64,000 nt of DNA, taken from Patescibacteria group bacterium UBA4787 (GTDB lineage Bacteria > Patescibacteriota > Patescibacteriia > UBA2591 > UBA4787). A program made the translations under genes and the position numbers. The stretch covers positions 85,625 to 149,624 of the forward strand of contig DHGX01000001.1 of assembly GCA_002402995.1 (NCBI GenBank), written 5' to 3'. This document shows positions 6,370-14,934 of the stretch, one piece after another (the stretch's first letter is position 1; each line of letters starts with the position of its first letter). The notes under the pieces were generated by a model, which was not told the DNA's origin, searched no databases, and saw only the letters and a list, made by a program, of their open reading frames with translations.

Positions 6370-8094
6370 ATGCCCGAAACCTTGAAACAGCGTCTGCAGA
6401 AGTGGATTCGCGACGAGGGTAGTTCAATCGATAAACTGGTCGAGTTTATTCAGCAGGAAATCAACGCGGTTATCCAGGAAAAGATCAAGCAGGTCGGAGC
6501 TTTAGTCGAGAAACTAAAGAATAGCGAAAATGCGCGACTCGATTTATTTGAGAAGTTCCAGGAACTAGTGAAGCGCTACAAGAATCTGAAAGAGCCGCCT
6601 TCAAGCTATGGCCGTGTTTTAGACAAACAGAGCGAACACGATCGTCTATTAAATCAAGACACTAAAACCGTAACCATTATCACTGCCGAAGGACGGATTA
6701 TGAAGGTTTTAGCCGAATCCGATGAGCTGTATAACAGGTTAAAATTCGGCGACAGCGTAGTAATAAACGCTAACGGCAACATTACGGCCTGCGGCTCGTT
6801 CCTCGGTAATGGTAGAACTGCGACCATCGAAATTGTCCTTGATGCGCGCCGGGCCCTGATCAATACGGGTACGGATCACAAAGAGGAGGTTTATTTGGTC
6901 CCTGGTTTCGCCAGTTTGAAATCTGGTGACGTGGTGGTTTACGATCCGTATTCGCACTTCGTTCTGGAGAAGATTCCGAAGGACGCCAATTTGAGCGAAC
7001 TGGAGCTGGAAAAGGTTCCGAACATTTCTTTGGACGACATCGGCGGTTTGCCGGAACAGAAAAGCACTATTGCTTTTAATATCTTGTCGCCGTTGGTTTA
7101 TCCCGAGATTTTCCAGAAACAGAAGCTCGAAATGTCCAAGGGCGCGATTTTGATCGGCCCTCCGGGCTGCGGCAAGACCATGATGGCCAAAGCGATCGCT
7201 CACGAACTGACGATGCATATGCGGGAAAAGCTCAAGAACCCAACGGCTATGGGCTGCTTCCTTTATGTGCGCGGTCCGGAACTTTCCGCCTGGTTGGTCG
7301 GTATGACCGAGTACAAGCTGCGCGAATTGTTCAAGAAAGCGGTGGAGAAAGCCAAGGAAACTGGTATTCCAACCGTCATTTACATTGACGAGGTGGAATC
7401 TTTTTTGAGGACGCGTGGAACAGGGATCTCTTCTGATGTGAAGGACGATTACGTGACCCAATTTAACTCTTTGGTTGACGGCCTTGACGAGACCGGCGGT
7501 CTGGTGTTTGTGCTGGCAGCCTCTAATCGTCCGGACATGATCGACCCGGCTGTGATGCGCGAAGGCCGACTTGACCTGAAGGTGATGGTCAGCCGTCCGA
7601 CACGCACAGAGCATGCCGAGGACATCCTGCGCAAGTATTTGACTTCGGATCTTTATTTCGACAAGTGTCACGAGAATGACGATAAGACGGTCTTGGTCAA
7701 CGAGTGGATCAAGAAAATCGCCAACTTCATTTTCGCGGACACGGAAGAGACGGAGTTCATGCGAGTGGACTATGTTGACGGCACAAACGAGGTTCTGTAT
7801 TTCCGGCATTTCGTTTCCGGCGCATTACTGAAAGCAATCGTCGATGAGGCGAAGCGCAAAGCTATCCGGCGGGAAATGGAAAAGCGCGGTGACTGTGGCT
7901 TAACGATAGACGACTTCTTGTCGGCTACAACGGAAAAGTTCTGCCAGAATAAACATCTGATTGACAAAGATGCTCTGCGGCAGGAATTCATTCTGCGGCC
8001 GGGCAAGACCGTTGAGAAGGTCATCAGCCTCGTGGAAACCAAGGAGGTGGAGAAGGAGCGCGGTGGTCTGAATGTTGACAGTGATGCTGTGTAA
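6370..8094 (+). CDS. arc: Proteasome-associated AAA+ ATPase (ARC/Mpa-type)
   Basis: N-terminal coiled coil, a middle OB-like region, and a AAA module with Walker A GPPGCGKT, Walker B IYIDEVE and a second region of homology. It lies adjacent to pup, dop and prcBA genes. The C-terminus ends ...DSDAV and has no GQYL/HbYX motif. Confidence 0.8.
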   Translation: MPETLKQRLQKWIRDEGSSIDKLVEFIQQEINAVIQEKIKQVGALVEKLKNSENARLDLFEKFQELVKRYKNLKEPPSSYGRVLDKQSEHDRLLNQDTKTVTIITAEGRIMKVLAESDELYNRLKFGDSVVINANGNITACGSFLGNGRTATIEIVLDARRALINTGTDHKEEVYLVPGFASLKSGDVVVYDPYSHFVLEKIPKDANLSELELEKVPNISLDDIGGLPEQKSTIAFNILSPLVYPEIFQKQKLEMSKGAILIGPPGCGKTMMAKAIAHELTMHMREKLKNPTAMGCFLYVRGPELSAWLVGMTEYKLRELFKKAVEKAKETGIPTVIYIDEVESFLRTRGTGISSDVKDDYVTQFNSLVDGLDETGGLVFVLAASNRPDMIDPAVMREGRLDLKVMVSRPTRTEHAEDILRKYLTSDLYFDKCHENDDKTVLVNEWIKKIANFIFADTEETEFMRVDYVDGTNEVLYFRHFVSGALLKAIVDEAKRKAIRREMEKRGDCGLTIDDFLSATTEKFCQNKHLIDKDALRQEFILRPGKTVEKVISLVETKEVEKERGGLNVDSDAV

Positions 8095-8102
8095 ATCAAT
8101 CC

Positions 8103-8136
8103 AGAGGGGAGCTCAAGCTTCCCTCTTTTATTTATT
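8103..8136 (+). terminator. Rho-independent terminator after arc
   Basis: agaggggagctcaagcttccctc hairpin followed by TTTTATTTATTT. Confidence 0.6.
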
Positions 8137-8216
8137 TAATTAATTTTTTATTGACCAATGCACCTCGGCTTATTTTATCAAAAATAACGACTGTTGATAA
8201 AAACTTCTAAATGGGG

Positions 8217-8246
8217 TTGACAAATTGGGTTTTTTACAACTATAAT
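8217..8246 (+). promoter_or_regulatory. Promoter (TTGACA, 18 nt spacer, TATAAT) upstream of the dop-like gene
   Basis: gTTGACAaattgggttttttacaacTATAAT; leader motif CGTTCTTTAAA at 8269-8279; strong SD AAAGGGGG before the ATG at 8298. Confidence 0.6.
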
Positions 8247-8297
8247 TAAGTATTAAAAAATTAAATATCGTTCTTTAAAAAGAAAGGGGGTAACTCA

Positions 8298-9869
8298 ATG
8301 AGAATCCCAAAAGTTTTTGGCATAGAAACCGAATGGTCTGTTCGTGTTCGAACGCGCAATAGCGTCAGGTTAGCTAACGCCAAAGAATTCGGCGTATTAA
8401 TAAAATTTATACGCGAATTTTTTACTTTGACCAACACCAGACAAGATTCCCAATGGGAGGCTTGTTCGGTTGATGCTGACCGCGAGTTAGAGCAAGAAAT
8501 AGATCTGCGGCATATCGAGAGTGTTGGTTATCTACCGAACGGCGCTCGTTTATATGTCGACTGGCCGCATTTGGAATATTCAACGCCCGAATGTCAGACG
8601 ATTCGTGATTTAATCGCCGCTGACCAAGCTGGCAATTGGCTGCTTAATATGGCCGCCAAAAAAGCCAGTCAACTCTTGAAAAGAGAGATTATAATTATCA
8701 AAGATAATTCCGATCGCAAAGGCGTTTCTTATGCCAGCCACGAGAATTATTCTTTGCAGCCCAGAACATTTAAGGCCATGATCGACCGACAGAACAGCGA
8801 AGCTCGCGATTTGATTTTGCCGTTTTTGGTAACGCGTCAAATTTTGGCCGGAGCCGGCAAAGTTGGTTCCGAAGCTAATAATTTGAGATCTGCAGATTAC
8901 GGCGAAACAAATTTTCAGATTTCGCAACGCGCAGATTTTATCAATGAAATTATCGGTATCGCCACTACGTCGCCGCGCAATCTGATCAACAGGCGCGATG
9001 AACCACATGCTGATTCTGATCTCTGCCGGCGATTGCATGTTATTATTGGTGATGCCAATTTCTGCGATTGGTCTTATTTTTTGCGCGTTGGAACCTACGC
9101 TCTGGTTTTGCGCATGCTGGAAGATTGCTTTATCGGCAATTCGCCAGTTTGTGTCGACAACCACTGGCTCGAAGCGCTTTATCAGACCTCGCGAGATTTG
9201 ACATGCAAGAAGAAGTTGCAGATTGGCACGGCTAGTCAATCACAGATGAATCCGATCGAGATTCAGCGTTGGTATCTTGGCTTAGTCAAGGAATATCTTG
9301 CCGAGTTTAAAGGCAGCGCCGAAGATCATGAGGTTTGTGAAAAATGGGAATATGTTTTAAACGCTCTGGACAACGACCCGAACCAATTGTTCGGCGTCTT
9401 GGACTGGGTAACAAAGAAATGTATTCTTGATCAATATCTTCAACACCAAGGCTTGCTTTGGCAGGATTCTCGGCTCCGTGTAATCGACATAGCTTACCAC
9501 AATATTAGCGATGAGGCTGGTCTTTATTATCAATTTTTAAAAAAAGGGAAAATCCAGAAATTGATTAATAACGAGTTGTTAATGGATAGGGTTCATAATC
9601 CTCCCGTTGACACACGCGCCTATTTGCGCGGAAAGATCGCTCGGCTTTATCCTGAGTTTGTGGAAGATTGGGAGATAATTTCCAATCGCATGCCAAGTAG
9701 ATTTCGTAAGGAACAGTTGGATTCGTTAAGGGTTATCCTAGAAGAAAAACACATTATTACTTTGGGTAACCCGGTTTTAACGCGAGAAGAGAGCGAAGAA
9801 ATTTTCAAACAAATTATTAATCTTTTGAAATCATGGAAAGGAGGAAGCGAAGATGTTAACACGACTTGA
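8298..9869 (+). CDS. dop: Pup ligase/deamidase family protein, Dop-like (candidate Pup deamidase/depupylase)
   Basis: FGIETEW start motif and NGARLYVD.P..EYSTPEC. SHENYS, LPFLVTRQILAGAGKV, INRRDEPHAD, RRLHVIIGDAN and NPPVDTRAYLRG are all PafA/Dop signatures. It has the longest insertion of the three paralogs between GIETE and NGARLY and a C-terminal extension, which is Dop-like. Confidence 0.75.
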   Translation: MRIPKVFGIETEWSVRVRTRNSVRLANAKEFGVLIKFIREFFTLTNTRQDSQWEACSVDADRELEQEIDLRHIESVGYLPNGARLYVDWPHLEYSTPECQTIRDLIAADQAGNWLLNMAAKKASQLLKREIIIIKDNSDRKGVSYASHENYSLQPRTFKAMIDRQNSEARDLILPFLVTRQILAGAGKVGSEANNLRSADYGETNFQISQRADFINEIIGIATTSPRNLINRRDEPHADSDLCRRLHVIIGDANFCDWSYFLRVGTYALVLRMLEDCFIGNSPVCVDNHWLEALYQTSRDLTCKKKLQIGTASQSQMNPIEIQRWYLGLVKEYLAEFKGSAEDHEVCEKWEYVLNALDNDPNQLFGVLDWVTKKCILDQYLQHQGLLWQDSRLRVIDIAYHNISDEAGLYYQFLKKGKIQKLINNELLMDRVHNPPVDTRAYLRGKIARLYPEFVEDWEIISNRMPSRFRKEQLDSLRVILEEKHIITLGNPVLTREESEEIFKQIINLLKSWKGGSEDVNTT

Positions 9870-10602
9870 GTTGACTTGGCGATTAATGGATGAGCTAATC
9901 GCTCAATTCCTGAAATTGCCGAGCGCGATAGGACAGAGCGACTTTAAACTGGAAGAGTATTTACAGCAATCCCATCTTCACGGTACCACCGTCCTCGCTC
10001 TGAAATATCAGGGTGGAGTGCTGTTAGGTGGAGACGGTCGGGCTTCCGGCATGGATTTCCGTATTTTTACGGACAAAACTCCGAAGGTTTATCCGGTTTC
10101 CGAGTCGACTGCTTACGGTCTTTCTGGGGACGCTCATCTGGGTATTGAGGTGGGAAAGATCTTGGCTTTGACGCTTAAGAATTACGAGAAGAAAGAGTTT
10201 CGAGCCATGAGTTTTGTCGCTCAAACCAAGATGTTGGCTAAAATGATCGAGCGTTTACTGCCAATGGCTATGCAGGGCCGTATCGTGATGCCGATTTTCG
10301 TGTCATGTCAGGAAATCTGCACGATTTATCCGAATGGCATGGTGGTAAGGGGAGATGAAGGTTATGGTGGAATTGGTTCGGGTAGTCCTCACGCCATTCA
10401 TCGCATCAAGGCTCGTTTGGCTGATAACCCCAATCCAGATAAAACCAGGGCGATAGAAATTATACTCGAAGCTTTTGCGGAAGCTCATAAGAGTGATGCC
10501 GCAACCGGCTCTAATTTGCTGATTTATAGTCTGGAAGAGTCGGGAATCGCTATCGTTCGCAACGATGTCGGAAACGGACCGTTTTCGATGAACCTGTTGT
10601 AA
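9853..10602 (+). CDS. prcB: 20S proteasome beta subunit (PrcB) with propeptide
   Basis: The propeptide is followed by the active-site HG/TTVLALKYQGGVLLGGDGR, which matches the mycobacterial TTIVALKYPGGVVMAGDRR. The GIGSGS and AATGS motifs are present. The start overlaps the dop end by 17 nt and is preceded by GGAAAGGAGG. Confidence 0.85.
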   Translation: MLTRLELTWRLMDELIAQFLKLPSAIGQSDFKLEEYLQQSHLHGTTVLALKYQGGVLLGGDGRASGMDFRIFTDKTPKVYPVSESTAYGLSGDAHLGIEVGKILALTLKNYEKKEFRAMSFVAQTKMLAKMIERLLPMAMQGRIVMPIFVSCQEICTIYPNGMVVRGDEGYGGIGSGSPHAIHRIKARLADNPNPDKTRAIEIILEAFAEAHKSDAATGSNLLIYSLEESGIAIVRNDVGNGPFSMNLL

Positions 10603-10617
10603 TCGTGAGGTGAAATA

Positions 10618-11322
10618 ATGGCTGATAAATTGGATCTCATTGCCAACGACAAAGATAATGCCTTGCCGGTTATCGCAGTCAGCACCAAAGACGGCATACT
10701 TCTTGTCGCAATTAATTTTTCCATTAGTCCGGAGGATTCCGATACCTACATCCACAAACTTTCAGAGATCCATGACAATATCGGCATGGGCGCTTGTGGC
10801 AATAGCAGCGAGTATGATCCGCTGCGCAGGCAGTTTATCGACGTCGTTGATAGGCTTGCCTACGAGTTGTCCAAGGACGATATTGTCTTGAAGAGTCTGG
10901 CCAATAGTTTGGCCGGAGAGTTGCGCGATGTATATCGCAATCCCCGTCTGGTTCCTCGTGTGGTCTTCTTCGTCTTGGTGGAATGTCAGGAAGATTCGAA
11001 GCGGGATCGTTTCGTCCGGATCGGTCTCGACGGCAAGTTCAAGATCTTTAATAATTTCACGGTGATCGGCGGCAACGACAAAGAGGTTGGCGCTCTAATG
11101 GATAACCTCAGGTCCGTCGAATTTTTGGAGATGGACTGGCCGACCGCTTTAACCGCGATCAAGGAAGCGATAAAGAAAACCAACATCGCCCGGATCGCTG
11201 GCGCAAAGAAATCGGACAAGACCGTCGAACCGTTCCCATCCCTGGAGCTGGCAATTCTCTGGCGTGGAAGAACTGGCAGAAAATGGCAGCTTTTGCCGCA
11301 TCAAATTAAGGAGGTGAAATAA
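10618..11322 (+). CDS. prcA: 20S proteasome alpha subunit (PrcA)
   Basis: VIAVSTKDGILLVA, KLSEIHDNIGMGACGNSSEYDPLRR and VIGGNDKE align with PrcA segments. It follows prcB. Confidence 0.75.
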   Translation: MADKLDLIANDKDNALPVIAVSTKDGILLVAINFSISPEDSDTYIHKLSEIHDNIGMGACGNSSEYDPLRRQFIDVVDRLAYELSKDDIVLKSLANSLAGELRDVYRNPRLVPRVVFFVLVECQEDSKRDRFVRIGLDGKFKIFNNFTVIGGNDKEVGALMDNLRSVEFLEMDWPTALTAIKEAIKKTNIARIAGAKKSDKTVEPFPSLELAILWRGRTGRKWQLLPHQIKEVK

Positions 11323-11323
11323 A

Positions 11324-11527
11324 ATGCTTAAAAAGCAGTTTCTATTCTTAACCCCAGACGAGCAAGAAAAAAAGGAGACTGAAAAACATCCTCTGGGGCC
11401 CAAGCCCGGCGGACCTGGCTCCGGTAAGAAGGCAGACAAAAATGATGATAACATCGATGACATCCTTGATGACATCATCGAACGGAATAAGCGGGTTAAT
11501 GAAACTGACGAGCGAGAGGGTCAGTAA
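11324..11527 (+). CDS. pup: Prokaryotic ubiquitin-like protein Pup (67 aa, C-terminal -EGQ)
   Basis: Small acidic, disordered protein whose C-terminal half DDNIDDILDDIIERNKRVNETDEREGQ resembles the Pup helix plus the terminal G-Q. Strong SD AAGGAGGTG. Located between prcA and a pafA-like gene. Confidence 0.6.
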   Translation: MLKKQFLFLTPDEQEKKETEKHPLGPKPGGPGSGKKADKNDDNIDDILDDIIERNKRVNETDEREGQ

Positions 11528-11535
11528 TATTTAAT

Positions 11536-11568
11536 CCCCGCACTTTAAAATAGTGCGGGGATTTTTTT
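11536..11568 (+). terminator. Rho-independent terminator after pup
   Basis: ccccgcactttaaaatagtgcgggg hairpin followed by ATTTTTTTAT. Confidence 0.7.
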
Positions 11569-11673
11569 ATAATCGCAATGAGCGAGGCAGCAGAAATTTT
11601 ATTTTTAGATTGCCGGACAGGTCAGATTATATATTGAAGAGAGGCATAGTTCTCCTCTTCTTCTATTTTAATT

Positions 11674-11708
11674 TGACAAATCATCAAAAAAAGATAAGAT
11701 TTATATAA
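11674..11708 (+). promoter_or_regulatory. Promoter (TTGACAAAT-type) upstream of pafA-like paralog 2
   Basis: tTTGACAaatcatcaaaaaaagaTAAGATttatataag; GTTCCTTAAAA leader variant at about 11725. Confidence 0.45.
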
Positions 11709-11755
11709 GAAAAATAATAATGTTGTTCCTTAAAATTATTCAAGGAGAGAATAAA

Positions 11756-13285
11756 ATGAAGAAGAGAATTATTGGGATAGAGAATGAATATCGGATTCAG
11801 GCTCTGCCCGGATTCGATAAAAGCAGATACAAGGTTTATTTTCGGGGATTGAAAATAAGCTTGAATCAGTTTCTATCCAACGGAGCGAGGTTTTATTTGG
11901 ATTTTCCGAGCGAACTGCCGGAGTATTGCACGCCGGAAGTTACGACCATCCGTGAAGTTCTGGCGCATGAACGCGCCGGAGATTATATTGTCTGGGAGAG
12001 CCTGAAAGACATGATGGAAATTTTTAGGCGGAATACCAGTCAGCCAGGTCTCTTTTACAAATATCTGGCAAGTGGTTGTCATGAGAACTATCTTTTTTAT
12101 CTTGATGAAGCTATCAAGTCAACTGCGAATATCTACCCGCAGATGAGCGGCCACATCTTGGCAAGATTGGTGGCTTTTTTGGGGCCCTTCTTGGTCTCTC
12201 GACAGATTTTTTGCGGCGCTGGTTGGTGGTTAACAAATGAAGATGGGCGAAGTTATTTTAATATTTCGCAGCGCGCCCATTTTATGAAGCGTGATTACGG
12301 CGGAGACACGATGCAGAATAGGGCGATTATCAATTCTCGGAATGAATCATTGTGTTCGTCGAGCAATTATTCTCGTCTTCATCTCATTGTTGGCGACTCC
12401 AATATGAGCGATCTCTCTGGTTTTCTCAAGCTCGGCACCACGTCTATCGTTTTAAGGATGATCGAAGCAGGCTTCTTTGATCCACAAGACATTGTTCTAG
12501 TTGATCCGGTTGCGGCTATCGCTGTCATTTCCGATGATTTGAGCTGTAAGGCGACTGTCCAGGCCGGCGGTTTGCATCGTTCGCTTTCAGCCATTGACAT
12601 CCAAGAGTGGTATCTTAATAAAGCTCGTGAATTTTTTGAATGTCGAGAAGTATCCGAAGAGGAGAAGGAGGTTATAAAATATTGGCAGGAAGTTTTGGAC
12701 AAACTGCGCCGAGACCCCATGCTTCTCAAAGAGGAGATCGACTGGGTGATCAAATATAATTTGATTTGCCGTTATGCTGAAAAACACGGTGTTGATCTCG
12801 ATCATTGTTCGGACGAGGAGAGTGAAGCGCTGAGAGTCATTGACACTCATTATCATTCTCTAAATCCGGAGAGAGGTTTGTACCACAAGCTTCTCGGCGC
12901 TGGGAAGATCGCCAAGCTTATTAGTGATAAAGAGGTGGCTTTGGCAATAAAATCTCCACCGACTGATACGCGAGCCAAAGTCCGTGGTGACTTCATTTCT
13001 TTCATCCTGAAAAATCATGCGGATTTGGTTAGGTATTTCATCGTCAATTGGGACGCTATTCGTTATAATTATCGTGCTAATGGATTTTCTAGGCTGATCC
13101 ACGAATTTCAACCTAATCAAGACGATGAATCGGTGAAAGCCTGTGTTTTCAATCTCGGCGATCCGTTTCTTTCAACAGAAACTTGCAACAACTTCCAAGT
13201 ATTGGTTGAAGAGATTGAGTCTCACCAAGAATTTTTCAAATCTATGATACCAACTCCGTCTCCTGACCATCGCGATTATGAATAG
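11756..13285 (+). CDS. pafA: Pup ligase family protein, PafA-like (paralog 2)
   Basis: IGIENEY, NGARFYLDFP.ELPEYCTPE, GCHENYL, RLHLIVGDSNMSD, LKLGTTSIVLRMIE, EIDWVIKYNL, PPTDTRAKVRG. Start chosen at MKKRII with SD AAGGAGAG. The GIENE-to-NGARFY spacing is short, which is PafA-like. Confidence 0.8.
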   Translation: MKKRIIGIENEYRIQALPGFDKSRYKVYFRGLKISLNQFLSNGARFYLDFPSELPEYCTPEVTTIREVLAHERAGDYIVWESLKDMMEIFRRNTSQPGLFYKYLASGCHENYLFYLDEAIKSTANIYPQMSGHILARLVAFLGPFLVSRQIFCGAGWWLTNEDGRSYFNISQRAHFMKRDYGGDTMQNRAIINSRNESLCSSSNYSRLHLIVGDSNMSDLSGFLKLGTTSIVLRMIEAGFFDPQDIVLVDPVAAIAVISDDLSCKATVQAGGLHRSLSAIDIQEWYLNKAREFFECREVSEEEKEVIKYWQEVLDKLRRDPMLLKEEIDWVIKYNLICRYAEKHGVDLDHCSDEESEALRVIDTHYHSLNPERGLYHKLLGAGKIAKLISDKEVALAIKSPPTDTRAKVRGDFISFILKNHADLVRYFIVNWDAIRYNYRANGFSRLIHEFQPNQDDESVKACVFNLGDPFLSTETCNNFQVLVEEIESHQEFFKSMIPTPSPDHRDYE

Positions 13286-13326
13286 TCCCGTTCTGGCTGA
13301 TTGAAATCCCCATTTTATTTTTATTA

Positions 13327-13356
13327 ACGCTCCTAAATAATTAGGAGCGTTTTAAA
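13327..13356 (+). terminator. Terminator after pafA-like paralog 2
   Basis: gctcctaaataattaggagcg hairpin followed by TTTTAAATTT. Confidence 0.55.
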
Positions 13357-13430: not shown

Positions 13431-14900
13431 ATGCAAAAACGCATTTATGGTTTGGAGACTGAGTATAGGTGGTGGAGTTCCTTGCCGGAGAAAAACCCCG
13501 ATAATCCGAGTCAGGTTTTTTCCGGATATCATTTGAATACTATAGTCAATTACTATCCGGGTAATTATTCTGGCTTTTTGCCAAACGGCGCTAGGTTTTA
13601 TGTGGACATGGTTCGGTTTCCAGAGTTCTCAACTCCGGAATGTGCGAGTGTTAGAGATGCCGTGATTTGGGATAAGGCAGGGGAAAAAATAGTTTTCGAT
13701 TGTTTGGGCGGCGCTGTTGTCATCCGAAAAAGAAATTTAGGCAGCAACGGAAAAGTACAGGGTTGCCACGAGAATTATTTGATCGATCGCCAGGTCTTAT
13801 TGAAAGATCGCGACATCTCTCTCGGTCATGTCCATTTGGTCGAACGAGACTTTAATTATTTGGCCGATCGTCTAATTCCTTTTTTGGTGACGCGCCAGGT
13901 TTTCTGCGGCACCGGCGCCATTATGGAGTTCCCACAAATTCAGATAGGGGAAAATCCTTCAACTCAGTGTTTATATCGCTATGTCATTTCACAGCGAGCT
14001 TTCAGAATCGAGCATTTAATCCACGCCGAGACTACTAATAATCGGCCGATCATTAACATGCGCAATGAGCCTCTGTGCGGTGGCGACGAGAGATATTTCC
14101 GCCTGCATCTGATTCTGGGTGATTCTAATCTTTCAGAGTTTTCGACTTTCTTGAAATTGGGTACTACTGGCATAATCTTGCGGATGATTGAGGCTGATTT
14201 TTTAGACACAACCAGTATTGCTCTGCTTGATCCATTAGCAGCTCTTCGGCAAGTCGCGATAGATCCGACTTGCAAAAAAAGGCTAGACTTGGTTGATCAA
14301 CGTCAGTTTTCAGCTATCGACATTCAACAGTGGTATCTCGACAAAGCCAATAAGTTCTTCCAGCGCAACGAAGCTTCAGAAGAGGAAAAAGAAGTGATTG
14401 AGCGTTGGCAAGAAACGTTGGACAAACTGCGCCGAGACCCCATGCTTCTCAAAGAGGAGATCGACTGGGTGATCAAGCTCAACGCTTTGATAAGATATTG
14501 CGAATCTCGCAATTTATCTTTTGACAGCGAAGAAGCAAGGCGTCTTGACGTGGCTTATCATGATCTTGATCCGGATAATTCTCTCTACTTAAAACTTCTT
14601 AAACGTGGTCGCGTCAAGAGGTTAGTTGCCGAGGAAGAGATCGAGAACGCCATTGTTAATCCGCCCGATACGCGCGCCAAAATTAGAGGTTCTGTTATAC
14701 TGGCAATCAACGATTATATTAATCGTTCGTCTATTGGCCGTGATCGCGGCATCTTAATAAACTGGGATTTGGTTTCTGTGTATGCTTCTACGATTCCTCC
14801 TACCACTACTTCTGATAAGATAATAACACTAAGCGATCCTTTCGCGGTGGAAAATTCGGAAATCCAGGCTCTAGTCAACCAATTAAATGCTACACTTTAA
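13431..14900 (+). CDS. pafA: Pup ligase family protein, PafA-like (paralog 3)
   Basis: YGLETEY, NGARFYVD...FPEFSTPEC, GCHENYL, LIPFLVTRQVFCGTGA, RLHLILGDSNLSE, LKLGTTGIILRMIE, EIDWVIKLNAL and PPDTRAKIRG. Confidence 0.8.
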   Translation: MQKRIYGLETEYRWWSSLPEKNPDNPSQVFSGYHLNTIVNYYPGNYSGFLPNGARFYVDMVRFPEFSTPECASVRDAVIWDKAGEKIVFDCLGGAVVIRKRNLGSNGKVQGCHENYLIDRQVLLKDRDISLGHVHLVERDFNYLADRLIPFLVTRQVFCGTGAIMEFPQIQIGENPSTQCLYRYVISQRAFRIEHLIHAETTNNRPIINMRNEPLCGGDERYFRLHLILGDSNLSEFSTFLKLGTTGIILRMIEADFLDTTSIALLDPLAALRQVAIDPTCKKRLDLVDQRQFSAIDIQQWYLDKANKFFQRNEASEEEKEVIERWQETLDKLRRDPMLLKEEIDWVIKLNALIRYCESRNLSFDSEEARRLDVAYHDLDPDNSLYLKLLKRGRVKRLVAEEEIENAIVNPPDTRAKIRGSVILAINDYINRSSIGRDRGILINWDLVSVYASTIPPTTTSDKIITLSDPFAVENSEIQALVNQLNATL

Positions 14901-14934
14901 CCCCTACTATAAAACAGTAGGGGTTTTTATTTTA
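14901..14934 (+). terminator. Rho-independent terminator after paralog 3
   Basis: cccctactataaaacagtagggg followed by TTTTTATTTT. Confidence 0.7.

What the first reader, a model, noticed from the sequence alone, without database searches (positions are those of the whole stretch)
6370..8094. ARC/Mpa-type ATPase lacks the C-terminal GQYL/HbYX proteasome-docking motif
The protein ends ...KEVEKERGGLNVDSDAV. Mycobacterial Mpa uses a C-terminal GQYL with a penultimate Tyr to open the 20S gate. Its absence suggests a different docking mode or an accessory factor, or that the ATPase and 20S do not couple directly here. The Walker B is also atypical (IYIDEVE).
Basis: partly seen in the sequence, partly recalled or inferred. 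Interest (0 to 1): 0.5.

Follow-up and report, generated by a model that had tools for sequence, protein, structure and literature searches.

The report
Tyrosine-less proteasome ATPase with matching core pocket
A candidate-phyla (Patescibacteria) bacterium encodes a proteasome ATPase that really lacks the usual tyrosine docking motif, and its proteasome alpha subunit has lost the residues that normally hold that tyrosine, pointing to a co-evolved alternative way of attaching the motor to the protease.

Summary
The main observation is real. ORF 6370-8094 encodes a 574-aa Mpa/ARC-type ATPase ending ...GGLNVDSDAV. A strong terminator follows the stop codon, and no reading frame gives a GQYL-like tail. 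The Walker B motif (VIYIDE) is normal.

The Tyr-less tail is a clade trait. Of the 120 best homologues, 108 end in G[QHAT]Y[LF]. The query's own rare Patescibacteria clade (40-90 % identity) does not; most members end in two aliphatic or small residues. All clade loci share one operon: ATPase, ligase, beta, alpha, small tag, ligase.

The paired alpha subunits co-vary with the tail:
- **Tyr-tail operons (27 alphas):** R/K at PrcA-R26 in 23 of 27, E119 in 27 of 27, and the YVSPEQ gate motif.
- **Tyr-less operons (7 Patescibacteria, 10 Nitrospirota UBact-type):** both Tyr contacts and the gate motif are lost.
- **All 44 alphas:** K52, which binds the terminal carboxylate, is invariant.

A 15-23-residue tail is kept in every 20S-linked ATPase. 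Truncated tails occur only in loci without 20S genes.

Best reading: a co-evolved, Tyr-independent docking mode in a third Pup-like proteasome system. This is a new variant of a known kind, inferred from sequence only. I found no description of it in the papers I could search.

The parts
6370..8094 (+). ARC/Mpa-type proteasomal AAA ATPase, 574 aa. Layout: coiled coil aa 20-74, two OB domains aa 79-202, AAA module, C-terminal beta-grasp-like domain, flexible tail.
   Evidence: TIGR03689 367 bits, PF00004; Mpa 5kwa E=1.5e-84; AF2 mean pLDDT 83; top 30 fold hits all Mpa
7156..7179 (+). Walker A motif GPPGCGKT (aa 263-270)
   Evidence: identical across the family
7288..7302 (+). Pore loop 1, 'AWLVG' (aa 307-311). 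The aromatic residue sits one position earlier than in the usual K-[YFW]-V-G.
   Evidence: seen only in the window and L089
7375..7392 (+). Walker B motif VIYIDE (aa 336-341), a normal hhhhDE
8032..8091 (+). C-terminal tail VETKEVEKERGGLNVDSDAV (aa 555-574). It has no Tyr and ends in Ala-Val. AF2 predicts a helix at 554-564 and disorder at 565-574.
8103..8126 (+). Intrinsic terminator directly after the ATPase stop codon (10-bp stem with 6 GC pairs, then a T-run)
8298..9869 (+). Pup_ligase-family protein 1 (Dop/PafA-like, in the Dop position), 523 aa
   Evidence: PF03136 393 bits; Dop 335 vs PafA 315 bits, both below cut-off
9853..10602 (+). 20S proteasome beta subunit with a 44-aa propeptide. 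The G/T45 processing site and the catalytic Thr1 region are intact.
10618..11322 (+). 20S proteasome alpha subunit, 234 aa. Only 16 residues precede strand S1, against 28 in canonical alphas. There is no YVSPEQ gate motif. Pocket positions: N14 at PrcA-R26, V115 at E119, K47 at K52.
   Evidence: (Shine-Dalgarno GAGGTGA and an in-frame TGA 4 codons upstream fix the start)
11324..11527 (+). 67-aa candidate Pup-like tag ending ...DEREGQ. It matches neither the Pup nor the UBact models.
11533..11563 (+). Intrinsic terminator after the tag ORF (12-bp stem)
11720..13285 (+). Pup_ligase-family protein 2, an extra paralogue found only in the window and L089. It ends ...DHRDYE, with a penultimate Tyr.
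13431..14900 (+). Pup_ligase-family protein 3 (in the PafA position), 489 aa
   Evidence: PafA 315 vs Dop 311 bits

Best explanation
This is the unfoldase of a divergent Pup-like proteasome system in a Patescibacteria (CPR) bacterium. The ATPase has the full Mpa/ARC architecture. It most likely still caps the 20S core encoded three genes downstream, but through a Tyr-independent contact. Its flexible 20-residue tail would reach the pocket between alpha subunits. The terminal carboxylate would bind the conserved Lys (K47, equivalent to Mtb PrcA K52). The small or aliphatic last residues (A-V here; mostly aliphatic pairs such as II, VV, VI, IL in relatives, also VS and TV) would sit in a pocket where the two Tyr-contacting residues are replaced by Asn14 and Val115. 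Tyr-driven gate opening would not be needed here, because the alpha subunit lacks the conserved N-terminal gate segment. Shown: the sequence features, their clade-wide conservation, and the co-variation. Inferred: the physical docking, the Lys-carboxylate contact, and the open gate.
For: (1) The architecture is Mpa-like: coiled coil, two OB domains, AAA module, beta-grasp-like domain and a disordered tail. Walker A, Walker B and the Arg fingers are intact. (2) The operon ATPase-ligase-beta-alpha-tag-ligase is conserved in every clade locus with enough flank: window, L089, L082/L083/L091, L085, L086, L087, L002. The beta subunit looks catalytically intact. (3) Of the 120 best homologues, 108 end in G[QHAT]Y[LF]. 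The clade members instead end AV, AV, VS, II, VV, VI, IL, TV. (4) Alpha co-variation, using contact residues from 10.1101/249060 and PMC9599533. In 27 alphas from Tyr-tail operons, R26 is R/K in 23, E119 is E in 27, S8-P9-E10-Q11 is kept in at least 25, and K22-G23-I24 in all 27 (one K22 is R). In 17 alphas from Tyr-less operons, the R26 site is N, S, D, K, Q, N, G (CPR) or Q (UBact type), the E119 site is V, V, V, C, S, S, G or I, and the gate motif is absent. K52 is Lys in all 44. (5) Tail length after the last beta-strand is 15-23 aa in all 41 20S-linked ATPases, including the CPR clade at 20-23 aa. Tails of 3-10 aa occur only in loci without 20S genes. (6) The alpha start is fixed by a Shine-Dalgarno sequence and an upstream stop, leaving 16 residues before S1 against 28 in canonical alphas.
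Against: The co-variation may reflect one or two evolutionary events only. In an NJ tree, the CPR clade, the UBact type, L168 and L022 fall on one side of a 99.5 % bipartition, so the association is not statistically independent across 17 sequences. Four Tyr-tail (GAYL) operons also have Q at the R26 site. The window's tail ends Ala-Val, which is less hydrophobic than in the rest of the clade. Gate truncation is marked only in the window/L089 subclade; other clade alphas have 22-26 residues before S1. Only 64 kb of a 262-kb contig was examined, so a second activator elsewhere cannot be excluded.
Confidence: 0.55

Rival explanations
1. The ATPase and the 20S are functionally uncoupled. The ATPase acts as a stand-alone unfoldase or partner of the tagging enzymes, as in proteasome-less actinobacteria. 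The 20S, with a short or gate-less alpha N-terminus, would degrade unfolded proteins on its own.
For: The penultimate Tyr and both of its alpha contacts are lost. The window's alpha lacks the gate segment. ARC-like ATPases without Tyr exist in loci that have ligases but no 20S genes (L008, L009, L012, L111). The ATPase has its own terminator, and a perfect-consensus promoter lies before the next gene.
Against: The ATPase is always adjacent to the 20S genes in this clade. The 20S-less ATPases have truncated tails (3-10 aa), whereas this clade keeps 20-23 aa. The alpha Lys that receives an activator's carboxylate is invariant.
Confidence: 0.22
2. Docking is supplied by another protein. This could be an adaptor or second activator encoded elsewhere. 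In the window's subclade it could be the extra ligase paralogue, whose conserved C-terminus ...DHRDYE carries a penultimate Tyr.
For: The 'DHRDYE' tail is identical in the window and L089 while the flanking residues differ. Mycobacteria do use several activators (Mpa, Bpa/PafE, Cpa; PMC6017811, 10.1101/249060).
Against: The extra ligase is present only in the window/L089 subclade, while the Tyr-less ATPase is clade-wide. The alpha pocket has lost the Tyr contacts, so a Tyr tail has no obvious receptor. No other AAA ATPase or GQYL-like C-terminus is present in the 64-kb window. 'D-Y-E' is not Hb-Y-X.
Confidence: 0.1
3. It is an artefact or a decaying gene: a truncated or frameshifted ORF that has lost its real C-terminus.
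For: None beyond the missing motif. The NCBIfam score is below the equivalog cut-off.
Against: A terminator follows the stop directly, and no alternative frame gives a Tyr tail. The same protein occurs on several independent assemblies. Tail length and the K..G.L pattern are conserved down to 40 % identity. All catalytic motifs are intact. The AF2 model is confident.
Confidence: 0.02

Closest known systems
Mycobacterium tuberculosis Mpa / Rhodococcus ARC (proteasomal ATPase of the Pup-proteasome system)
   Same: Same domain architecture: coiled coil, double OB, one AAA module, beta-grasp domain and a flexible C-terminal tail. 32-36 % identity over the aligned fold matches. Best sequence and fold match. 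Encoded next to Dop/PafA-like, PrcB and PrcA genes.
   Different: No GQYL or penultimate Tyr. The score is below the NCBIfam equivalog cut-off (367 vs 505 bits). The partner alpha lacks R26, E119 and the YVSPEQ gate motif. The tag is not Pup and lies after prcA instead of before prcB. Pore loop 1 is shifted (AWLVG).
ATPase of UBact-type proteasome operons in Nitrospirota (loci L010-L026)
   Same: Also an ARC-like ATPase with a Tyr-less tail ending in two aliphatic residues (...TSQIV). It sits in a full ATPase-ligase-tag-beta-alpha-ligase operon. Its alpha has also lost R26 (Q) and E119 (I) and keeps K52. It falls on the same side of the family tree.
   Different: Only about 190 bits to the query, against about 300 for Tyr-tail ARCs. 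The tag is a bona fide UBact (NF033388 76 bits, PF20513 72 bits) placed before the beta gene. The tail is shorter (15 aa). The alpha N-terminus is a conserved MYEEPYRW....
PAN and Rpt ATPases (HbYX motif) of archaea and eukaryotes
   Same: Ring ATPases with coiled coil, OB and AAA domains whose C-terminal tails insert between alpha subunits. The alpha Lys that binds the carboxylate is conserved (10.1101/249060).
   Different: HbYX requires a penultimate Tyr, which triggers gate opening. Here there is none. From memory, some Rpt subunits also lack HbYX yet still insert their tails; I did not test this.
11S activators (PA26/PA28)
   Same: They dock through C-terminal carboxylate-Lys salt bridges without an HbYX motif and have variable terminal residues (10.1101/249060; PMC6017811).
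   Different: They are non-ATPase heptamers that open the gate with an activation loop. There is no homology to this ATPase, and no equivalent loop has been identified here.
Cpa (Cdc48-like protein of actinobacteria)
   Same: A bacterial AAA ring that interacts with the 20S although it lacks the HbYX/GQYL motif (PMC6017811).
   Different: Cpa is a double-AAA Cdc48 homologue. Its last five residues are dispensable for binding. It is not encoded in the proteasome operon.

Membership tests
ARC/Mpa proteasomal ATPase (NCBIfam TIGR03689 pup_AAA) | Score at or above the curated equivalog cut-off (504.75 bits) | tested here: not met
   366.7 bits, E=1.9e-109, covering aa 31-533. It is the best-scoring family but sits below the cut-off.
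ARC/Mpa proteasomal ATPase | Architecture: N-terminal coiled coil, two OB domains, a single AAA module, C-terminal beta-grasp domain | tested here: met
   The AF2 model shows H20-74, beta-barrels at 79-202, the AAA module, and C-terminal strands with a helix. The top 30 PDB fold hits are all Mpa. Sequence alignment to 5kwa covers aa 77-550.
ARC/Mpa proteasomal ATPase | Intact Walker A, Walker B, pore loop and Arg fingers | tested here: met
   GPPGCGKT, VIYIDE and NRPDMIDPAVMREGR are present. Pore loop 1 is present but shifted (AWLVG instead of K[YFW]VG).
ARC/Mpa proteasomal ATPase | C-terminal GQYL, with a penultimate Tyr, for 20S docking and gate opening | tested here: not met
   The protein ends ...DSDAV. 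No clade member has the Tyr.
ARC/Mpa proteasomal ATPase | Genomic linkage to Dop/PafA-family and PrcB/PrcA genes | tested here: met
ARC/Mpa proteasomal ATPase | Forms hexamers, binds the tag through its coiled coils, and feeds the 20S | not testable with these tools
Pup-proteasome system (actinobacterial type) | Tag protein matching Pup (PF05639 / TIGR03687) and ending in GG[QE] | tested here: not met
   The 67-aa ORF ends REGQ and gives no Pup hit at E<=10. A control Pup from locus L120 scores 82 and 64 bits.
Pup-proteasome system (actinobacterial type) | Gene order arc-dop-pup-prcB-prcA-pafA | tested here: not met
   Here the tag ORF follows prcA (11324-11527), and there are three ligase paralogues.
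UBact system | Tag protein matching UBact (NF033388 / PF20513) | tested here: not met
   No hit at E<=10 for four clade tags. A control UBact from locus L013 scores 76 and 72 bits.
HbYX-type proteasome activators | Hydrophobic-Tyr-X at the extreme C-terminus | tested here: not met
   The C-terminus is D-A-V.
Carboxylate-Lys docking without Tyr (11S-like mode) | The alpha-subunit Lys equivalent to PrcA K52 / T. acidophilum K66 is conserved | tested here: met
   K47 in the window's alpha; Lys in 44 of 44 alphas examined.
Carboxylate-Lys docking without Tyr (11S-like mode) | A separate gate-opening element (activation loop), or a gate that needs no opening | tested here: inconclusive
   The alpha N-terminus is 12 residues shorter than in Mtb and lacks YVSPEQ. 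The structural consequence was not tested.

The most novel reading that the evidence does not exclude
Patescibacteria of this clade carry a third type of bacterial ubiquitin-like tag and proteasome system, alongside the Pup and UBact types. It would have its own tag family (...[KRQ]EG[QE], encoded after prcA). Its ARC-type unfoldase would dock on the 20S through an aliphatic C-terminus held by the conserved alpha Lys, in a pocket remodelled from Arg/Glu to Asn/Val. In the window's subclade the alpha ring would be naturally gate-less. Tyr-independent coupling would then be the rule for a whole deep branch of bacterial proteasomes (CPR type plus UBact type), not an exception.
Probability: 0.35. 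Interest if true: 0.65.

Novelty: new variant of a known kind. Interest (0 to 1): 0.55.

Why it matters
All mechanistic work on bacterial proteasome activation in the papers I read (Mpa, Bpa/PafE) rests on the GQYL motif and its contacts with PrcA R26, E119 and K52. Here a complete, apparently functional proteasome operon lacks the Tyr on the ATPase side and both Tyr contacts on the alpha side, while keeping the carboxylate-binding Lys. The same pattern appears in UBact-type operons of Nitrospirota. This gives a natural experiment on what is minimally needed to couple an AAA unfoldase to a 20S core. It yields specific, testable residues: ATPase aa 565-574, and alpha N14, K47 and V115. It also suggests that gate control in these lineages differs from the mycobacterial model. 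Finally, it flags a tag family that current Pup and UBact models miss, in an organism group with very small genomes, where keeping a proteasome at all is notable.

Tried and rejected
1. **Frameshift or sequencing error.** I translated all three frames across 7990-8320 and scanned for terminators. This was rejected.
2. **My first alpha comparison was mis-classified.** I took the Nitrospirota alphas starting 'MYEEPYRW' as partners of GHY[LF] ATPases and concluded that loss of R26 was not specific. Gene maps showed these operons carry a Tyr-less '...TSQIV' ATPase. I redid the comparison with correct classes.
3. **The genome-contig scan was unspecific.** Run with the full-length clade alignment, it picked universal AAA patterns and returned mostly archaeal Cdc48 and actinobacterial ARC, with only one clade locus, L002. 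A C-terminal-domain alignment was more specific but found only three more clade loci in the metagenome collection.
4. **Walker B 'DExE' as a marker of the Tyr-less branch.** Rejected: it is equally common in Tyr-tail proteins.
6. **Literature.** The UBact paper (10.1016/j.bbrc.2017.01.037) is not held. Searches for UBact, CPR plus proteasome, and pupylation plus Patescibacteria found no description of Tyr-less ATPases in such operons.
7. **P0008.** This 894-aa protein, listed among the nearest hits, is a double-AAA protein in a different context and not a clade member.
8. **Other candidate activators in the window.** I looked for another AAA ATPase or a GQYL-like C-terminus in the 64-kb window. 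There was none except the ligase paralogue ending DYE.
Full report
**1. The observation**

The ORF at 6370-8094 (+) encodes a 574-aa protein ending ...KEVEKERGGLNVDSDAV. Its best family match is the proteasome ATPase model TIGR03689 (366.7 bits, E=1.9e-109). This is below the curated cut-off of 504.75 bits. Pfam finds the AAA domain and a weak proteasomal OB domain.

The best solved-structure matches by sequence are M. tuberculosis Mpa chains (5kwa, E=1.5e-84). An AlphaFold2 model built on a 48-sequence alignment has mean pLDDT 83. It shows a coiled coil (aa 20-74), two beta-barrels (79-202), an AAA module, a C-terminal mixed alpha/beta domain ending in strand 548-553, a helix (554-564) and a disordered end (565-574). 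Its top 30 PDB fold matches are all Mpa. So this is an ARC/Mpa-type ATPase, and it has no penultimate Tyr.

**2. It is not an artefact**

- The TAA stop is followed at 8103-8126 by a 10-bp GC-rich hairpin and a T-run.
- A perfect TTGACA-18-TATAAT promoter-like site precedes the next gene.
- No downstream frame encodes a GQYL-like end.
- The identical protein is recorded on several contigs from NCBI, JGI, ENA and Logan.

VIYIDE is a regular hhhhDE Walker B. The 'DExE' continuation occurs in 38 of 76 diverse family representatives, including Tyr-tail proteins. Walker A and the Arg fingers are intact. Pore loop 1 is unusual in the window and L089 only: AWLVG instead of K-[YFW]-V-G.

**3. Family background**

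Of the 120 best homologues out of 5.8 billion proteins, 108 end in G[QHAT]Y[LF] (46 GHYL, 33 GQYL, 26 GHYF, 2 GTYL, 1 GAYL). These come from Nitrospirota, NC10, Poribacteria and Nomurabacteria, among others. Only the query and its eight nearest relatives (P0001-P0007, P0009; 40-91 % identity) have Tyr-less tails: AV, AV, VS, II, VV, VI, IL, TV.

Within that clade the tail keeps its length and a K....G.[LI] pattern. The clade is rare. A clade-specific pattern scan of 241 million metagenome records found only three further loci. The host is a Patescibacteria (CPR) bacterium: a 90 %-identical ATPase and the closest named NusA relatives carry that label.

**4. Context**

In the window the gene order is:
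- ATPase (6370-8094)
- Pup_ligase-family gene 1 (8298-9869)
- beta subunit (9853-10602)
- alpha subunit (10618-11322)
- a 67-aa ORF ending DEREGQ (11324-11527)
- two more Pup_ligase-family genes (11720-13285 and 13431-14900)
- NusA

Every clade locus with enough flank has the same ATPase-ligase-beta-alpha-small ORF-ligase order. The beta subunit aligns with Rhodococcus and Mtb PrcB from the G/T45 processing site, with the catalytic Thr1 region conserved.

The small ORFs of the clade end [KRQ]EG[QE]. They match neither the Pup nor the UBact models, even at E<=10. Control tags from comparator loci score 64-82 bits (Pup) and 72-76 bits (UBact).

**5. A second Tyr-less lineage**

Processing all 168 fetched loci showed two operon types in Nitrospirota.
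- One has a GHY[LF] ATPase with classical Pup between the ligase and the beta gene.
- The other has an ARC-like ATPase ending ...EEHRTSQIV, with UBact.

In a neighbour-joining tree, the CPR clade, the UBact-type ATPases, L168 (...KSVV) and a Terrybacteria protein lie on one side of a bipartition with 99.5 % bootstrap support. All Tyr-tail ATPases lie on the other side. Within the Tyr-tail half, the motif is missing only in ATPases from loci without 20S genes, such as L008 and L111.

Among 50 %-identity representatives of the wider family, further Tyr-less tails ending in two aliphatic residues exist (...DLDIL...DDNII...DRGII...RNVI). Their genomic context is unknown.

**6. Co-variation with the alpha subunit**

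Published structures give the contacts. The penultimate Tyr of GQYL contacts PrcA R26 (cation-pi or H-bond) or, in a second binding mode, E119. The terminal carboxylate binds K52. Gly606 contacts D144 and S146 of the neighbouring subunit (10.1101/249060; PMC9599533; PMC8755798).

I aligned 43 distinct alpha subunits, each taken from a locus whose ATPase tail is known, with Mtb PrcA.

| Alpha position (Mtb numbering) | Tyr-tail operons (n=27, incl. Mtb) | CPR clade (n=7) | UBact type (n=10) |
|---|---|---|---|
| R26 | R 10, K 13, Q 4 | N, S, D, K, Q, N, G | Q |
| E119 | E 27 | V, V, V, C, S, S, G | I |
| S8-P9-E10-Q11 | at least 25 of 27 | absent | absent |
| K22-G23-I24 | 27 of 27 (one K22 is R) | absent | absent |
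| K52 | K 27 | K 7 | K 10 |

In the window's alpha these positions are N14, V115 and K47. So both residues that hold the Tyr are gone exactly where the ATPase has no Tyr. The Lys that receives an activator's carboxylate is kept everywhere.

The window's alpha also has only 16 residues before strand S1, against 28 in canonical alphas. Its start is fixed by a GAGGTGA Shine-Dalgarno sequence and an in-frame TGA four codons upstream. Other clade alphas have 22-26 residues there, with no conserved sequence.

**7. Tail retention**

Measured from the last conserved beta-strand, all 41 distinct 20S-linked ATPases have tails of 15-23 residues. The CPR clade has 20-23, the UBact type 15 and the Pup type 19-23. 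Tails of 3-10 residues occur only in loci with at least 5 kb of downstream flank and no 20S genes. AF2 predicts the window's last ten residues to be disordered. This matches the flexible linker seen between the Mpa beta-grasp domain and GQYL (PMC8755798).

**8. Interpretation**

The most economical reading is that the ATPase still caps its 20S through a co-evolved, Tyr-independent contact. A flexible tail would have its carboxylate bind K47, and its small or aliphatic end would sit in a pocket that has become less polar (E119 to Val, R26 to Asn). The canonical Tyr-triggered gate switch would be absent or unnecessary. I put this at about 0.55.

The rivals are:
- uncoupling of the ATPase and the 20S (about 0.2);
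- docking through another factor (about 0.1);
- an artefact (about 0.02).

Main caveats: nothing physical was tested, the co-variation may represent only one or two evolutionary events, and only part of the genome was seen.

**9. Comparison and novelty**

It works like Mpa/ARC in architecture and context. It fails two family criteria that I tested: the equivalog cut-off and the GQYL motif. Its tag fails both the Pup and the UBact models.

Docking without Tyr has precedents. The 11S activators use carboxylate-Lys contacts, and Cpa binds the 20S without HbYX (PMC6017811; 10.1101/249060). None of these is an operon-encoded ARC-type unfoldase.

I found no description of Tyr-less ATPases in UBact-type or CPR proteasome operons in the searchable literature. 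The original UBact paper was not available. I rate it a new variant of a known kind, of moderate interest to proteasome specialists.

Noticed in passing
window 11324-11527 (+); also L089 4995-5198, L085 4491-4655, L086 5668-5832, L087 5577-5786, L002 about 8278-8439: The small ORFs (54-69 aa) after the alpha gene are acidic and end in [KRQ]EG[QE]. They match neither the Pup (PF05639, TIGR03687) nor the UBact (PF20513, NF033388) models at E<=10. They may be a third family of Pup-like tags, encoded after prcA instead of before prcB.
   Followed up: partly
window 11720-13285 (+); L089 5342-6904: An extra Pup_ligase paralogue, present only in the window/L089 subclade, ends ...DHRDYE with a penultimate Tyr. 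These six residues are identical in both loci while the flanks differ. A Tyr tail on a ligase or deligase rather than on the ATPase is unexplained.
   Followed up: partly
window 7288-7302 (ATPase aa 307-311): Pore loop 1 reads S-A-W-L-V-G-M-T-E. The rest of the clade has S-K-W-V-G-E-T-E and canonical ARCs have N-K-Y-V-G-E-T-E. The aromatic residue is shifted one position and the conserved Lys and Glu are replaced. This is seen only in the window and L089.
   Followed up: no
window 8103-8126, 8217-8246, 11533-11563, 13326-13351, 14899-14925: Strong terminator-like hairpins follow the ATPase, the tag ORF, ligase 2 and ligase 3. A 12/12 consensus promoter-like site precedes ligase 1. The locus looks split into several transcription units rather than forming one operon.
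   Followed up: no
loci L010, L013-L023, L026 versus L116, L120, L125, L132, L140, L141: Nitrospirota carry two different complete proteasome operon types. One is Pup type, with a GHY[LF] ATPase and a YVSPEQ alpha. The other is UBact type, with a ...TSQIV ATPase and a MYEEPYRW alpha. I did not check whether one genome holds both.
   Followed up: partly
loci L008, L009, L012 (Actinomyces), L111, L112, L142: These ARC-like ATPases sit next to two Pup_ligase genes but no 20S genes. Their C-terminal tails are cut to 3-10 residues and have no Tyr. This is consistent with loss of the docking tail once the proteasome is lost.
   Followed up: partly
L084 10001-12685 (P0008): This is an 894-aa ARC-like protein with OB domains and two AAA hits, ending ...WLEGSI. 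It lies next to two short Pup_ligase-family ORFs (272 and 187 aa, possibly a split gene), with no 20S genes nearby.
   Followed up: no
L002 (CAZMTM010000018.1): This 8.6-kb contig carries a typical CPR-clade operon (ATPase tail ...NSGII) but is labelled 'uncultured Gammaproteobacteria bacterium'. It is probably a mis-binned contig.
   Followed up: no
L088 (CP060232.1, Candidatus Nomurabacteria) 10001-11740: Another CPR genome has a GQYL-tailed ARC (tail of 29 aa) with no ligase or 20S genes within 10 kb on either side. CPR bacteria therefore carry both tail types in different lineages.
   Followed up: no
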